Source: Vampirovibrionales bacterium (GTDB lineage: Bacteria > Cyanobacteriota > Vampirovibrionia > Vampirovibrionales > JAJTHC01). From it: a stretch of DNA of 64,000 bases. Below are positions 45,645 through 63,334 of the stretch, piece by piece. The stretch spans positions 21,018-85,017 of the forward strand of contig JAYKHY010000039.1 in NCBI GenBank assembly GCA_035285025.1, read 5' to 3'. The number at the start of each line of letters is the position of its first letter. The first letter of the stretch is position 1. The notes under the pieces are model-generated. The model saw only the letters and a program-made list of their open reading frames with translations, did no database searches and was not told the origin of the DNA. Made by a program: the position numbers and the translations under genes.

Positions 45645-45782
45645 TGGTAGTGGCTTAGTCTGGTGGGTTCAATATCTCCTGAAGCGAGTGCCCTAGCTTT
45701 TTACTGGTAAAAAGCGTTTTTTCAAGCGCTTTTCAAGCGCTATCTTTAGCGCTCCCTGAACGAACCAAACTGACCCACTCCC
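45645..45782. mobile_element. MITE-like element family 2, copy A
   Basis: Right TIR CCAAACTGACCCACTCCC. The left end GGTAGTGG...GGTGGGTTCAATAT is partly degenerate. Internal motif CTGAAGCGAGTGCC and internal hairpin GCTTTTTAC-TG-GTAAAAAGC. Confidence 0.5.
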
Positions 45783-45785
45783 TTT

Positions 45786-46868
45786 TTATACTGCGGTGGT
45801 GGCAGTAGAAAGCACGCGCGCAACCCCTTGCTGCGCCGCCTTAAGCGCTTGCGACGGGGGTACAGGATTCAAACCACCGGAATCCAGCGCCAGATACGGC
45901 CAAACCACCTGGCGCGCAATTGTGCCGGCGGCTGCGCCCGCAATAAACCCGTAAGCTGGCTGCGCTAAATACTGCCCGGTAAACGCGTTTACCCCGCCCG
46001 AAATCGTCAGCGGAACACCAAAACGTTCAAGCCAGGGCTGATGCGCGGCCCATACCTGTTGCGCGTGCCTGAGTGCGGGCAACGTCGCTTAGGCGTCAGG
46101 CGTGCCAGACATGGGCTGGCCATCGACCTGAAACATCAAGCCCGCCCATTGCGGCAGCCACTGTTCAAGCTTCGTCAGGGCGGCGTTTGCCTGCGTGGCA
46201 TTGGCGTTGGGCCGAAAACAAATCGAAACCAATTTACCTGCCAGCGCATCGCCCAGCGTGATTAATAAAGGCGCCAGCGTGGTGGCGTTCAGGGCCTCGG
46301 TGTGCAGTTCTACCGCGCCAACGGCTGGGTGTTGCAGCAGCGCAACCATGGCTTCGGGCAGCGTTTCGGTTTTTTGCAGGGTCAGGGCCTCTACCGGGCA
46401 AACCGGAATACACCGGCCGCAGCCGTAGCAATCGGGCAGATGATACTGCAACTGCGCGTGTTCGCCCGGCGCGCTTGAATCGGTTAACTGAAAGGCTCCC
46501 GTCGGACAAACCGGAATGCACGCCTGACACGTCGTGCAGACGTCAGCATCTAGCGCCGCCTTCCGAAAATGAGGATCGCCGTCAACATCCAGGCTCACCA
46601 TAAGCAAGGGGGGCGATTCTAGCGTTTGCAGCACCTGATGCGCCGCATTAACCACCGCCCAATCGGGAGCCACGTCGATGCACGCAACGCGCGCTGGCGC
46701 GAGCGCGCCGTAAACTTGGGCCAGCGCCGCAACAGCCCGAGCGTTGGTCAGGCTTGCACCGGCAATAAGCTTAAAATATTGCTTGCGATCAAGTGCAGCC
46801 AGCGCGCGAGTAATCGACGCCTGAACGGTATTGCTGCACGGGATGGCGTTAGTGGGTTCCGATAGCAT
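45786..46868 (-). pseudogene. Iron-sulfur protein with two 4Fe-4S ferredoxin motifs (cyanobacterial LdpA-like), interrupted by one in-frame TAA
   Basis: The 259-aa ORF (46089-46868) has CTTCQACIPVCP and CYGCGRCIPVCP. The 98-aa ORF (45786-46082) is in the same frame. The two are separated only by TAA (46089-46091) plus two sense codons. Their combined length of about 360 aa fits a single gene. Confidence 0.5.
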
Positions 46869-48459
46869 TAATCTTAAAATTGTTGGTAAGCCAGTCCTGA
46901 ATGGTTTTTAATTGCGCCTGGCATGTTGCTTCGGCCTCGGGCGACGATGCGCCGGTGCCCTCGCTGTAAACGCGCAACAACGGCTCGGTGCCACTGGCGC
47001 GCAACAGTACCCATCCACCGTTGGAGAGGTAAAATTTAAGGCCATCGCGCGTACCAAATTTGGTTTGCAGTTTTTCGGCCTCCGCCACCGAGGATTGCGT
47101 ATCAACAGGCAAGGCCGTGGTAATAAACGCCTGTGCTTGATCAAGGATTTTAGCGCCATCGGGCGTGCGTACCGCGATTTCGTGGAACGCATAGCGCTGG
47201 GGCAGACTGGCGTTGATTTCAGAAATCAGGCGGCTGAGCGGGATTTTTGCTTTTGCCATGGCCTCAAGGACTAAAAGATTCGCCAGGATGCCGTCTTTTT
47301 CGGGGATGTGTCCGCCAATGCTCAGGCCGCCCGAGCTTTCGCCGCCCAGAATAATCTCGGGCAGGCCTTGTTCTTCCTGCTCGATAAAACATTCGGCAAT
47401 GTATTTGTACCCAACGGGCGTTTGGATCACTTCGATGGCGGTTTGTGGTATTTGCTTGAGCAAGGCATCCAGTTTATGGCTGGTCGCCTGAGAACGCAGC
47501 ACGGTGCCCGTCAGCGGACGATCAACCAACCGGTGATTGAGCTGATGCCATAGCACCAGCAGCAGCACATCGTTAGCGTGGACAAACTGGCCGTTTTCAT
47601 CAATCACCCCAAACCGATCGGCATCGCCATCGTTGGCAAGGCCAACAATGCTGCCTGCGGCAGGGCTTGCACCTTTAACCGCGTGAATCAGGGGTTCGAG
47701 TTCTTCGGCCACTGGGTTGGGCATGCCGGTATAACCTTGCGGGCGATCGGCGTCGCCTTGAAGCATATGAATCTGCACGCCTTCATCGGCAAGTAACGGC
47801 GGCAAATACCGACGGCCCGTGGCGTAAAGCGGGCTGTAAAACACTTGCAAGCCGGCGTGCGTAATACTGGGGAAGTTTATCTGAACCTGCTCAATCAAAT
47901 GCCGACGGTAGGCCATGTAGGCCTCGAGCGGTTTAAGCTGCCCCTTGCGATTCAGCTTGAGAGCCTTGGGGTTGGCCTGCAGCGCTTCAAAGGCTTGCGT
48001 CATGGCGCTGGGCGCAACCGCTCCCTGATTGGTTAAAAAATTATACCCGCCGTAGGGCCAAGGGTTATGGCTGGCCGAAAGCAGCACCGCGCCGACGCTG
48101 TGCGCGTGCATCAGGCCCAGTTTATCCAGATGGCTTGCGGCAAAGGCCAGCACCGGCGTCGGGATATCGTCTTCGGCAAGCGCAACATCAAAACCGCGTT
48201 CGAGGAGCAAGTTTGCAACCAGAGGTGCAAACTTAATGGTTTTCTCGCGCGTATCACCACCTACCAACATTGTGGCGGCGCAATCGCCCAAGCCCAAGCG
48301 CTGCAATTGGTCGATAAAATAATCCGCGATGGCGCCAGTAATCTGGCGCACAACGGCCTCGTTAAAACCGGCGTCCGTATCGTTGCGATACCCTGAGGTA
48401 CCGAATTTATAAATTACGGGCGTCGGGGCGGTCGTAACGGTGTTGGTTTCGGTGGGCAT
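46849..48459 (-). CDS. Phosphoglucomutase/phosphomannomutase (alpha-D-phosphohexomutase superfamily)
   Basis: 536 aa. Active-site Ser loop SASHNP, metal-binding GLANDGDADR, and the sugar-binding GGESSGG block. Confidence 0.8.
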   Translation of the reverse strand: MPTETNTVTTAPTPVIYKFGTSGYRNDTDAGFNEAVVRQITGAIADYFIDQLQRLGLGDCAATMLVGGDTREKTIKFAPLVANLLLERGFDVALAEDDIPTPVLAFAASHLDKLGLMHAHSVGAVLLSASHNPWPYGGYNFLTNQGAVAPSAMTQAFEALQANPKALKLNRKGQLKPLEAYMAYRRHLIEQVQINFPSITHAGLQVFYSPLYATGRRYLPPLLADEGVQIHMLQGDADRPQGYTGMPNPVAEELEPLIHAVKGASPAAGSIVGLANDGDADRFGVIDENGQFVHANDVLLLVLWHQLNHRLVDRPLTGTVLRSQATSHKLDALLKQIPQTAIEVIQTPVGYKYIAECFIEQEEQGLPEIILGGESSGGLSIGGHIPEKDGILANLLVLEAMAKAKIPLSRLISEINASLPQRYAFHEIAVRTPDGAKILDQAQAFITTALPVDTQSSVAEAEKLQTKFGTRDGLKFYLSNGGWVLLRASGTEPLLRVYSEGTGASSPEAEATCQAQLKTIQDWLTNNFKINAIGTH

Positions 48460-61856: not shown

Positions 61857-63119
61857 CTAGGCATTGGGCAGGCTGAGATCCGGGGTTTTGGTGTATTGCA
61901 CCGGCAGCCACTCGCGCTGGGTGCGCACGCGGATTTTGCCCGCTTCCAGGGTGGTTACCAGCAGATGATCGTTGCCCGAGAGCTTGAATAATTGGCCAAG
62001 CGTGTAGGGTCTGGGCATATCGGCCTTGGGTTGGCCAAAATACGCCGCCAGCTTAAGGCCGGGTAAAAGTTTATGATTGGTTGATTTAAGCTCGGGGTAC
62101 TGACCGTTTAAGGCCTCGGAAGCCGCGAGCAAATCGGCATACATGGGCGTGGTTTGCTTGGGGTGCAAACTGGCCGAGGCCACCACGACGGGAGCGGGCA
62201 TCTGGGGGGGGTGCAGCAATAGCGCAGCGCCCGCGTACTGGCCGTTTCTGGCGCTACGCTTAAACGAAACCGCATTGTAATACGCCGATTGCGCCTGTTT
62301 TAACGCGGCAATAACATCGTTCGGCTTTAAAGATCCCATCACCTGTTGGGCTTTAGGCGAAATCTCAACCGGTAGCGCCGATAAATCTGCTGGGACATCC
62401 GGCGGCACATCGCAGGTTTGGCTCGCGAGCGGGAAAAGCGCCTTGAGCGGTTTGGCCTGAAGCTGCTGCACGCCTTTTTCGTCACGATCAATGTAGCCAA
62501 TCAGGGTATCGGGCTTGAGCGTGCTGTTTTGCGCAACCACGTTATGCATCGTTTGCTGGCAAATGTGGCAAGCGCATTGCGTGGCCAGGTAAGGGTCTGC
62601 ATAGCGCGAGGTAATTGTAACCAGCGCCTTGACCGGCGCTTGCGGATGTACCTGCATCGCTGTTTTGAGGGCCAAACGCTCCGAACAAATGGGGTCATCG
62701 GGGGCGAATGCAATGCTTGTTTTAAGGATTGGCGACAGGGCAGGAGACTGAAACACCAGCGCGGAGCCCCACACCTCGGGTAATTTATTAACGTTTTGCT
62801 TACTCGTGGTTTTGGCAACCTCGTAGGCTTGGCGCACCCAATCACGAAGCTCTGGCTCGGTGATGCCAGACTGCTGCAACAAAGCCTGCACCCCCTTGGC
62901 CAAGGGGAGCGCATGCGGCAACGGCTGTACGCTTTTTTGAGCCAGTGCGTTTAATTTTTGCTCCGACAAGCGCGAAAACGTATCGATGGGTTGTGTATTG
63001 GCCTGGCTGCCAAACGATACGCGCGCCAGTTTGCCCGCCCAAGGCGTCGCTAAAAACAGGGGTGCCGGATCTGTGCTGGCAGCACTTGATTGGGGCACGG
63101 GGCGAGCAAGAAGCATCAT
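61857..63119 (-). CDS. Hypothetical protein
   Basis: 420-aa ORF, Ala/Gln/Pro-rich, with no confidently recognised motif. Confidence 0.3.
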   Translation of the reverse strand: MMLLARPVPQSSAASTDPAPLFLATPWAGKLARVSFGSQANTQPIDTFSRLSEQKLNALAQKSVQPLPHALPLAKGVQALLQQSGITEPELRDWVRQAYEVAKTTSKQNVNKLPEVWGSALVFQSPALSPILKTSIAFAPDDPICSERLALKTAMQVHPQAPVKALVTITSRYADPYLATQCACHICQQTMHNVVAQNSTLKPDTLIGYIDRDEKGVQQLQAKPLKALFPLASQTCDVPPDVPADLSALPVEISPKAQQVMGSLKPNDVIAALKQAQSAYYNAVSFKRSARNGQYAGAALLLHPPQMPAPVVVASASLHPKQTTPMYADLLAASEALNGQYPELKSTNHKLLPGLKLAAYFGQPKADMPRPYTLGQLFKLSGNDHLLVTTLEAGKIRVRTQREWLPVQYTKTPDLSLPNA

Positions 63120-63221
63120 GATAATTGATTAAAGCGCAAAAACCGAGGAAACGCTCCCTAAAAGAGATAAGTATTGTGGTTTGGTGCCAGCCTGGGCGGA
63201 AAGGCGCTAGCTTCAAGAAGT

Positions 63222-63334
63222 TGAGTATTGTGTCAGTTTGGCACTGATAGAGAGTGCGAGAGATAGCGCTTTTTACCAGGTAAAAGCGACGGCCCTCGCT
63301 TCGGGATATTAAGCCCAACAAACTGACCCACTAC
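63222..63334. mobile_element. MITE-like element family 2, copy C (inverted relative to copy A)
   Basis: Ends GTATTGTGTCAGTTTGG and CAAACTGACCCACTACC. Internal hairpin GCTTTTTAC-CAG-GTAAAAGC and CGACGGCCCTCGCTTC, the reverse complement of the GAAGCGAGGGCCG motif of copies A and B. Confidence 0.55.

What the first reader, a model, noticed from the sequence alone, without database searches (positions are those of the whole stretch)
45645..63334. Dispersed family of non-coding MITE-like elements with 17-18 bp TIRs GGTAGYGGGTCAGTTTG, at least four copies, all intergenic
Copies sit at 45645-45782, 48818-48908, 52873-52968 and 63222-63334, with a fragment at about 54337-54356. They share terminal inverted repeats. 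Copy B is a perfect 18-mer. They also share an internal CTGAAGCGAG(G/T)GCC motif. Copies A and C have an internal GCTTTTTAC-N3-GTAAAAAGC hairpin. Copy B has flanking GGGCGA repeats that look like a target-site duplication. No transposase is present in the window, consistent with non-autonomous elements mobilised in trans. Their positions are 3' of dgt, between the TPMT-like gene and the Fe-S gene, and beside mutY and folE2. They could provide terminators or promoters.
Basis: seen in the sequence. Interest (0 to 1): 0.55.

Follow-up and report, generated by a model that had tools for sequence, protein, structure and literature searches.

The report
Decayed IS1-family MITEs in Vampirovibrionales genome
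Four short non-coding repeats between genes are real miniature transposons (MITEs) left behind by an IS1-type insertion sequence; they are an ordinary kind of genomic parasite, mostly decayed, seen here in a poorly studied bacterial lineage.

Summary
The window carries four alignable copies (91-137 nt, 75-82% pairwise identity) and one internal fragment of an element with terminal inverted repeats GGTAG(Y)GGGTCAGTTTG. There are 7 terminus matches against 0.33 expected by chance. All copies are intergenic and lie within the last 18 kb.

The MITE interpretation is supported and can be made more precise. In other genomes the same 17-mer bounds 2.6-4.6 kb elements. These carry a ~290 aa DDE transposase that hits Pfam DDE_Tnp_IS1 and is annotated "IS1 family transposase". 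The same 17-mer also bounds dozens of 30-700 bp non-coding derivatives in many phyla. Of 55 terminus pairs, 23 have perfect 8-bp target-site duplications.

- Copy B has intact ends and a 7/8 duplication (GGGCGACT/GGGCGATT).
- Copy A has an exact 7-bp duplication.
- Copies C and D have decayed ends.

About 70 kb of host sequence contains no transposase. The host is a Vampirovibrionales MAG. Simple scans found no promoter or terminator consensus inside the copies.

Verdict: a new member of a known kind, namely non-autonomous IS1-family derivatives that are mostly fossils. Interest is low. Genome-wide copy number, a co-resident transposase and current mobility could not be tested.

The parts
45646..45782 (+). 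MITE copy A, 137 nt, the longest copy. Left TIR is GGTAGTGGCTTAGTCTG (3 mismatches to the consensus). Right TIR is GGGAGTGGGTCAGTTTG (1 mismatch). It has internal hairpins, including GCTTTTTACTGGTAAAAAGC.
   Evidence: RNA fold is -50 to -51 kcal/mol with z of -4.0 and -5.6 on the two strands. It lies between the stop of the LdpA-like C-terminal ORF (45786-46082, - strand) and the start of the TPMT-like gene (44859-45527, - strand).
45639..45645 (.). Left copy of copy A's target-site duplication, TTTTTAT. The right copy is at 45783-45789 and contains the TAA stop codon of the upstream ORF on the - strand.
   Evidence: (7:0 mismatches).
48818..48908 (+). MITE copy B, 91 nt, the best preserved copy. 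TIRs are GGTAGCGGGTCAGTTTG and GGTAGCGGGTCAGTTTT, identical over 16 nt. It has an internal GCGAGGG...CCCTCGC hairpin.
   Evidence: RNA fold is -49 and -53 kcal/mol with z of -5.9 and -7.0. It lies 15 nt downstream of the stop of the dgt-like HD gene (48923-50032, - strand) and upstream of the PGM gene (46849-48459, - strand).
48810..48817 (.). Left copy of copy B's 8-bp target-site duplication, GGGCGACT. The right copy, GGGCGATT, is at 48909-48916. The match is 7/8.
52872..52970 (+). MITE copy C, 99 nt, decayed. Left TIR is GGTGATGGGTCAATTTG (3 mismatches). Right TIR is GATAATAAGTCAGTTTG (4 mismatches, all G-to-A). No recognisable target duplication.
   Evidence: The fold is not better than shuffles (z of -0.7 and -1.3). 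It lies between the mutY stop (53005) and the next - strand gene (start about 52674-52716).
63224..63335 (-). MITE copy D, 112 nt, in opposite orientation to A-C. The terminus at 63319-63335 is a perfect GGTAGTGGGTCAGTTTG. The terminus at 63224-63240 is AGTATTGTGTCAGTTTG (3 mismatches). The central hairpin is shared with copy A.
   Evidence: (I1-I3). Fold z is -3.4 and -5.5. It lies between the folE2 stop (63370) and the start of the 420-aa gene (63119).
54329..54359 (-). Internal-core fragment (TGAAGCGAGGGCCGTTGCTGCGCTCGAGC on the - strand) with no TIRs. It is probably a remnant of a fifth copy, in the mutY-queD intergenic region.
   Evidence: (I11, 83% over 29 nt), (nhmmer E=0.0065, which is weak).

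Best explanation
These are non-autonomous miniature transposons (MITEs) derived from, and originally moved by, a transposase of the IS1 family. The transposase belongs to a widespread clade whose elements end in GGTAGTGGGTCAGTTTG and duplicate 8 bp of target DNA.

Proposed mechanism: an IS1-type DDE transposase supplied in trans binds the two 17-bp terminal inverted repeats, cuts at the outer GG, and inserts the element with a staggered 8-bp cut. This leaves a direct repeat on each side.

The four copies descend from one lineage-specific MITE subfamily of about 140 nt and have since acquired internal deletions. They now differ by 18-25%, and most have lost one or both functional ends. They are therefore largely fossils that survive only in intergenic DNA. 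Only copy B still looks mobilisable.

Shown here: the repeat family, its TIRs, the target duplications, and the identity of its ends with those of IS1-family elements elsewhere.

Inferred: trans-mobilisation in this host, the age of the copies, and the absence of present-day function.
For: 1. Seven TIR matches against 0.33 expected. The copies align over their full length.

2. The same 17-mer bounds transposase-carrying elements:
   - L024 584-3791
   - L040 518-4112
   - L077 1751-5859
   - L122 296-3665 (Mesorhizobium loti plasmid CP050295.1)
   - L123 767-3400

3. Their ~290 aa protein hits Pfam PF03400 DDE_Tnp_IS1 at 35.5 bits (cutoff 24.1) and, best among NCBIfam models, transpos_IS1. GenBank and RefSeq plasmid records annotate it as 'IS1 family transposase'. 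tblastn with the L024 transposase matched 19 further loci among those holding the TIR (E<=1e-5, 41-63% identity), several of them only fragments.

4. Of 55 TIR pairs, 23 have a perfect 8-bp flanking duplication, 8 have 7/8, 4 have an exact 7 bp and 1 has an exact 9 bp. About two thirds of the pairs enclose less than 700 bp with no room for a transposase. MITE derivatives of this clade are therefore common.

5. In the window, copy B has a 7/8 duplication over 8 bp and copy A has an exact 7-bp duplication.

6. The published IS1 family signature is ends GGnnnTG and direct repeats of 8-9 bp (PMC10425158 Table 8; PMC6807381). Our end, GGTAGTG, fits. An ISAba3-like IS1-family TIR, GGTGGTGTTTCAAAAAG, with 8-bp duplications is reported in PMC6382973.

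7. Rfam has no match in the window.
Against: - No IS1-type transposase, and no transposase of any kind, was found in the window plus 5.8 kb of adjacent host sequence. The rest of the host genome could not be read.
- Only four copies and one fragment are documented. Two subfamily-specific patterns found nothing real in JGI metagenomes.
- Copies C and D lack convincing duplications.
- No empty-site comparison was possible. The relatives recovered are only 55-75% identical in conserved proteins (mutY at most 60%, ClpB at most 75%), and the one locus examined is not syntenic.
- The transposase scores below the NCBIfam transpos_IS1 cutoff (52 against 100 bits), so it is a divergent IS1-family branch.
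Confidence: 0.88

Rival explanations
1. The copies are domesticated structural elements. Transcribed as 3' UTR hairpins, they would act as terminators, RNA stabilisers or regulatory sites. They may have begun as MITEs but would now be kept by selection.
For: Copies A, B and D fold into very stable hairpins (-37 to -53 kcal/mol, z of -3.4 to -7). All four lie just downstream of - strand genes, within 3-40 nt of stop codons.
Against: The stability is what any TIR pair gives. No terminator-like site (stem plus T-run) and no promoter-like site falls inside a copy. Copy C has lost its fold (z about -1). The substitutions in its ends (four G-to-A in one arm) are not compensated on the transcribed - strand. 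Orientation relative to transcription is mixed, with D inverted. There is no Rfam family.
Confidence: 0.07
2. They are REP/REPIN-type elements moved by a RAYT (IS200-like Y1 transposase). The GTAG near the 5' end and the paired inverted arrangement resemble REPINs.
For: The terminus contains GTAG, and the two arms form a long hairpin of REPIN-like size. This resemblance rests on my own knowledge of REPINs.
Against: REPINs do not make target-site duplications. This family shows perfect 8-bp duplications in 23 pairs. Its ends bound elements carrying a DDE IS1-type transposase, not a Y1 transposase. No RAYT was seen among the window ORFs scanned.
Confidence: 0.02
3. The mobilising partner belongs to the IS6/IS26 family rather than IS1. 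IS6/IS26 also has GG...TG ends and 8-bp duplications.
For: The GGnnnTG feature and the 8-bp duplication are shared by IS6/IS26 (PMC6807381). The transposase gives weak sub-threshold hits to DDE_Tnp_IS240 (24.9 bits, cutoff 27) and NCBIfam transpos_IS6.
Against: The IS1 models score higher. Pfam DDE_Tnp_IS1 is above its cutoff, and NCBIfam IS1 gives 6e-14 against 1e-7 for IS6. Annotated records call the protein an IS1 family transposase.
Confidence: 0.03

Closest known systems
IS1 family insertion sequences (ISfinder definition). This includes single-ORF and cargo-carrying members such as the ISMhu11 group (the group name is from memory) and ISAba3-like elements.
   Same: - The terminal signature is GGnnnTG (ours is GGTAGTG).
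- Target duplications are 8 bp, with occasional 7 or 9.
- The partner is a DDE transposase matching PF03400.
- The TIR resembles the ISAba3-like GGTGGTGTTTCAAAAAG (11 of 17 positions).
(PMC10425158, PMC6807381, PMC6382973)
   Different: - The window elements have no transposase and are 91-137 nt long.
- The cognate transposase is a single ~290 aa ORF, not insA/insB' with a frameshift.
- It scores below NCBIfam's IS1 cutoff.
- Full-length relatives are 2.6-4.6 kb and carry passenger genes, for example an HTH_3 + M78 (IrrE-like) protein.
- Membership of a named ISfinder subgroup was not testable here.
Bacterial MITEs such as MITEAba12 (PMC6382973).
   Same: Both are short non-coding elements with TIRs that match a parental IS. 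Both have target duplications of the parental length, sit mostly in intergenic DNA, occur in multiple copies, and show subgroups differing by internal changes.
   Different: - MITEAba12 derives from ISAba12 and makes 9-bp duplications.
- Its copies are nearly identical, and it was caught transposing with a co-resident parent.
- Here the parent family is IS1, the copies are 18-25% diverged with decayed ends, and no co-resident parent or movement has been shown.
REP/REPIN elements mobilised by RAYTs.
   Same: Both are intergenic, hairpin-forming paired inverted repeats of about 100 nt with GTAG near the end.
   Different: REPINs make no target-site duplication and depend on Y1 transposases. This family has 8-bp duplications and DDE-transposase parents.

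Membership tests
MITE (miniature inverted-repeat transposable element) | Small size (about 50-600 bp) with no coding capacity | tested here: met
   Copies are 91-137 nt. None is covered by a listed ORF with family support.
MITE (miniature inverted-repeat transposable element) | Terminal inverted repeats | tested here: met
   Copy B has 16 of 17 identical positions. The other copies have 3-4 or more mismatches between arms. There are 7 matches against 0.33 expected.
MITE (miniature inverted-repeat transposable element) | Flanking target-site duplication of the parental length | tested here: met
   Copy B has GGGCGACT/GGGCGATT (7/8) and copy A has TTTTTAT (7/7). C and D have none recognisable. 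The family norm of 8 bp comes from 23 perfect cases elsewhere.
MITE (miniature inverted-repeat transposable element) | Multiple dispersed copies that align to a consensus | tested here: met
   Four copies and one fragment lie within 18 kb. The genome-wide number is unknown.
MITE (miniature inverted-repeat transposable element) | Ends match those of an autonomous IS able to supply the transposase | tested here: met
   Identical 17-mer ends occur on IS1-family elements in other genomes.
MITE (miniature inverted-repeat transposable element) | Co-resident autonomous partner in the same genome | not testable with these tools
   None was found in about 70 kb of host sequence.
MITE (miniature inverted-repeat transposable element) | Evidence of mobility (presence/absence polymorphism at a site) | not testable with these tools
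   The closest relatives found are 55-75% identical in conserved proteins (mutY at most 60%, ClpB at most 75%), and the one locus examined is not syntenic.
IS1 family (as parent of the MITE) | Ends GGnnnTG | tested here: met
   The end is GGTAGTG or GGTAGCG. The definition is taken from PMC10425158 Table 8 and PMC6807381.
IS1 family (as parent of the MITE) | Direct target repeats of 8-9 bp | tested here: met
   8 bp in 23 perfect and 8 near-perfect pairs, 9 bp in one, 7 bp in four.
IS1 family (as parent of the MITE) | IS1-type DDE transposase | tested here: met
   This was tested in related loci, not in the window. PF03400 scores 35.5 bits against a cutoff of 24.1. NCBIfam transpos_IS1 is the best hit but falls below its cutoff (52 against 100). 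The protein is annotated 'IS1 family transposase' in CP050295.1 and NZ_CP041717.1.
REPIN / RAYT-mobilised REP | No target-site duplication, and association with a Y1 (RAYT) transposase | tested here: not met
   8-bp duplications are present, and the partners are DDE transposases.
Known structured RNA family (Rfam) | Match to a curated covariance model at its gathering score | tested here: not met
   No match anywhere in the window.

The most novel reading that the evidence does not exclude
This lineage-specific MITE subfamily may have been co-opted as a 3'-end RNA hairpin module. It would stabilise or insulate transcripts of adjacent co-directional genes in Vampirovibrionales. Its conserved internal core (CTGAAGCGAGGGCCGT) would be a binding site for a host factor rather than transposon debris. 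A lesser reading is that the parent, an IS1 clade with a near-invariant 17-bp end across at least ten phyla that carries HTH/M78 cargo genes, is an undescribed broad-host-range transposon group.
Probability: 0.07. Interest if true: 0.45.

Novelty: new member of a known kind. Interest (0 to 1): 0.2.

Why it matters
The practical value is for annotation.

- These repeats should be masked as IS1-family MITEs. They should not be mistaken for regulatory RNAs or terminators.
- They can break short-read assemblies. One Logan contig of the same organism ends 58 nt from copy D.
- They document past IS1-type transposon activity in Vampirovibrionales, a predatory, non-photosynthetic sister lineage of cyanobacteria with few genomes. 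A search of the held papers found no mention of MITEs in this lineage.
- The 17-mer GGTAGTGGGTCAGTTTG is a convenient probe for a very widespread IS1 clade and its many miniature derivatives in soil phyla.

None of this changes current understanding of how transposons work.

Tried and rejected
1. Counting copies in the host genome. It did reveal the parent family.

2. Searching JGI metagenomes for this subfamily. GGGTCAGTTTGN{12,20}GAAGCGAGGGCC gave 0 hits. The looser ...CYGAAGCGAG gave 1 hit (L124), which lacks the outer GGTAG and any second terminus and is a chance match.

3. Empty-site comparison. The mutY homologues are at most 60% identical. The locus of P0007 shows no synteny, so this was abandoned.

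4. Walking beyond the window.
   - L128 gave 5.8 kb on the left with no copy.
   - The identical ClpB (P0121, on an 87-kb NCBI contig) could not be located.
   - The GGDEF ORF look-up failed, probably because the start codon was wrong.

5. A weak tblastn hit of the transposase at 4413-4556 lies antisense inside the hexapeptide-repeat (putative lpxD) gene and is spurious.

6. A literature search for the TIR sequence returned only an unrelated primer. Siguier et al. 2014, the review I recalled as the source of the IS family table, was not held. The IS1 definition was therefore taken from secondary sources.

7. The terminator/promoter idea. Consensus scans found nothing inside the copies.

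
Full report
**Observation.** The four claimed copies exist. Searching the window for GGTAGYGGGTCAGTTTG with up to three mismatches gives seven matches. Dinucleotide-preserving shuffles give 0.33 on average, and none of 100 reaches seven. All seven matches are ends of the four copies.

Refined coordinates:
- A: 45646-45782
- B: 48818-48908
- C: 52872-52970
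- D: 63224-63335, inverted relative to the others

The copies align end to end and are 75-82% identical pairwise over the aligned positions. They differ mainly by internal deletions. A profile built from them finds the four copies, a weak internal fragment at about 54329-54359, and nothing else in the 64 kb. It also finds nothing real in a further 5.8 kb of the same organism to the left of the window.

- B's arms are identical over 16 nt, not 18.
- The GCTTTTTAC/GTAAAAAGC hairpin is in A and D, not A and C.
- The core motif varies slightly between copies.

**Context.** Pfam scans place the copies in intergenic DNA between co-directional - strand genes:
- A lies between an LdpA-like Fe-S gene and a TPMT-like methyltransferase gene.
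- B lies 15 nt after the stop of a dgt-like HD phosphohydrolase gene.
- C lies after mutY.
- D lies after folE2.

Fifty ORFs across the window were scanned and none is a transposase. The window belongs to a Vampirovibrionales MAG. Its ClpB is 100% identical to an NCBI protein with that organism name on an 87-kb contig, and the next best hits are Vampirovibrionales/Melainabacteria at 65-75%. MutY points the same way at 55-60%. The same organism appears in the Logan assembly of SRR13425446.

**What the ends belong to.** One scan of 185,579 species genomes with GGKAGYGGGTCAGTTTK hit the 120-locus limit. By my estimate, a few hundred chance matches are expected in 596 Gb, spread evenly over the eight variants the pattern allows. 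That is not what is seen. About 110 of roughly 130 termini are the single variant GGTAGTGGGTCAGTTTG, and many occur as inverted pairs.

Several pairs enclose 2.6-4.6 kb containing a ~290 aa ORF (L024, L040, L077). This ORF hits Pfam DDE_Tnp_IS1 above its gathering score (35.5 against 24.1 bits). NCBIfam transpos_IS1 is its best hit, though below that model's cutoff. tblastn with the L024 protein matched 19 further TIR-bearing loci at 41-63% identity, several of them only fragments.

In annotated plasmids the protein is called 'IS1 family transposase'. In Mesorhizobium loti CP050295.1 the gene lies in a 3,370-bp element with perfect GGTAGTGGGTCAGTTTG ends (L122 296-3665). That element also carries an HTH protein and two small genes.

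The published IS1 family signature is ends GGnnnTG with 8-9 bp direct repeats (PMC10425158 Table 8, citing ISfinder; PMC6807381). An ISAba3-like IS1-family TIR, GGTGGTGTTTCAAAAAG, with 8-bp duplications is described in PMC6382973. The ends found here fit that signature.

**Target-site duplications.** I paired every + terminus with the nearest - terminus (up to 3 mismatches each) in all loci and compared the flanks. Results for the 55 pairs:

| Flank match | Pairs |
|---|---|
| Perfect 8-bp duplication | 23 |
| 7 of 8 | 8 |
| Exact 7 bp | 4 |
| Exact 9 bp | 1 |

A perfect 8-mer has a chance probability of about 1.5e-5 per pair. These are therefore transposition products with an 8-bp stagger.

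About two thirds of the pairs enclose less than 700 bp, some only 32-70 bp, so non-coding miniature derivatives of this clade are common. The records holding them are labelled Terriglobia/Acidobacteriota, Planctomycetota, Gemmatimonadota, Verrucomicrobiota, Actinomycetota, Alpha- and Deltaproteobacteria and others.

In the window, B is flanked by GGGCGACT/GGGCGATT (7/8) and A by an exact TTTTTAT. A's duplication contains the stop codon of the upstream ORF. C and D have no recognisable duplication.

**State of the copies.** Against the 17-mer consensus, the termini have these mismatch counts (and direct reading):

| Copy | Mismatches at the two termini |
|---|---|
| A | 3 and 1 |
| B | 1 and 2 |
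| C | 3 and 4 |
| D | 0 and 3 |

B's mismatches include the shared T-to-C at position 6. Only B keeps both outer halves intact. C's right arm carries four uncompensated G-to-A changes, and C no longer folds better than shuffled sequence. With 18-25% divergence between copies, these are old insertions that are mostly no longer mobilisable.

The interior is specific to this lineage. Other loci match the profile essentially only through the TIRs. A 44-nt remnant in another Vampirovibrionales MAG (L006) shares GAAGYGAGAACCGTTC with copy C. Two subfamily-specific patterns found nothing real in JGI metagenomes.

**Function.** A, B and D fold into very stable hairpins (z of -3.4 to -7), but any TIR pair does. 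Simple scans place no sigma-70-like promoter and no stem-plus-T-run terminator inside any copy. The region as a whole has no excess of either. Rfam has nothing. I therefore see no evidence for the suggested promoter or terminator role. A role as 3' UTR hairpins cannot be excluded without transcript data.

**Rivals.**
- REPIN/RAYT elements are excluded by the duplications and the DDE partners.
- An IS6/IS26-family partner shares the GG...TG ends and the 8-bp duplication but scores worse on every model.
- Domestication is possible but unsupported.

**Limits.** I could not read the rest of the host genome. Copy number and the presence of a co-resident IS1-type transposase are therefore unknown. 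No close relative was available for an empty-site test. A search of the held papers for MITEs in Vampirovibrio found none. I also could not query ISfinder to see whether this IS1 clade is already named.

**Verdict.** It can now be attributed to the IS1 family with an 8-bp target duplication. It is a new member of a well-known kind of element, and its interest is low.

Noticed in passing
window 21036-21140; related pieces at 61713-61741 (rc), 52818-52840 and 5654-5733: There is a second, unrelated small repeat of about 100 nt with its own inverted ends, AGTAAATCAACTTTAGGTTAGGA / TCCTAACCTAAAGTGCATGATTTACT. One copy sits between the two halves of a PALP (pyridoxal-phosphate enzyme) gene: ORFs 20579-21043 and 21149-21700, in the same frame, matching Pfam profile positions 3-122 and 132-295. 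The insert contains several stop codons. The gene looks split or inactivated by the insertion.
   Followed up: partly
window 46089-46091 (- strand): The LdpA-like Fe-S gene is interrupted by a single in-frame TAA. ORF 46089-46868 matches the Fer4 domains and LdpA_C profile positions 2-78. The same frame continues as ORF 45786-46082. This could be a nonsense mutation, a sequencing error or a natural two-gene split.
   Followed up: partly
L117 1919-1960 (Terriglobia MAG): Two IS1-clade ends abut, facing away from each other, separated by exactly 8 bp (…CAAACTGACCCACTACC TCATAAGG GGTAGTGGGTCAGTTTG…). This could be a tandem insertion, an IS dimer, or the junction of a circle-like intermediate.
   Followed up: no
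L024 584-3791, L122 296-3665, L077 1751-5859: Full-length elements of this IS1 clade carry passenger genes. L024 has an HTH_3 + Peptidase_M78 (IrrE-like) protein and two unknown ORFs. L122 has an HTH protein and two small genes. In L077 the IS1-type transposase gene is split (3424-3903 and 4508-4852), and between the two parts lies an ORF (3926-4207, - strand) that by eye resembles an IS200-type transposase; this was not tested.
   Followed up: partly
L006 4959-5002 (another Vampirovibrionales MAG): A 44-nt mini-remnant, GGTAGTGAAGTGAGAACCGTTCTGAATCAAACTGACCCACTACC, shares the internal GAAGYGAGAACCGTTC with window copy C. The MITE subfamily may therefore be shared within the order.
   Followed up: partly
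window 44801-44859: A T-rich tract with a 10-11 nt periodicity (TTTTTAACGC / TTTTTGATGC / TTTTTTGCGTG ...) lies between the AMP-binding enzyme gene and the TPMT-like gene. It may be intrinsically bent DNA (family D4).
   Followed up: no
window 63370-63960 (- strand): The folE2 ORF matches only profile positions 86-260 of 260 in Pfam GCHY-1, and there is an in-frame stop upstream within the window. Its N-terminal part may be divergent, frameshifted or missing.
   Followed up: no
L127 (Logan SRR13425446 contig) = window 59042-63393: An independent short-read contig of the same organism ends 58 nt beyond MITE copy D. This may be an assembly break caused by the repeat.
   Followed up: no
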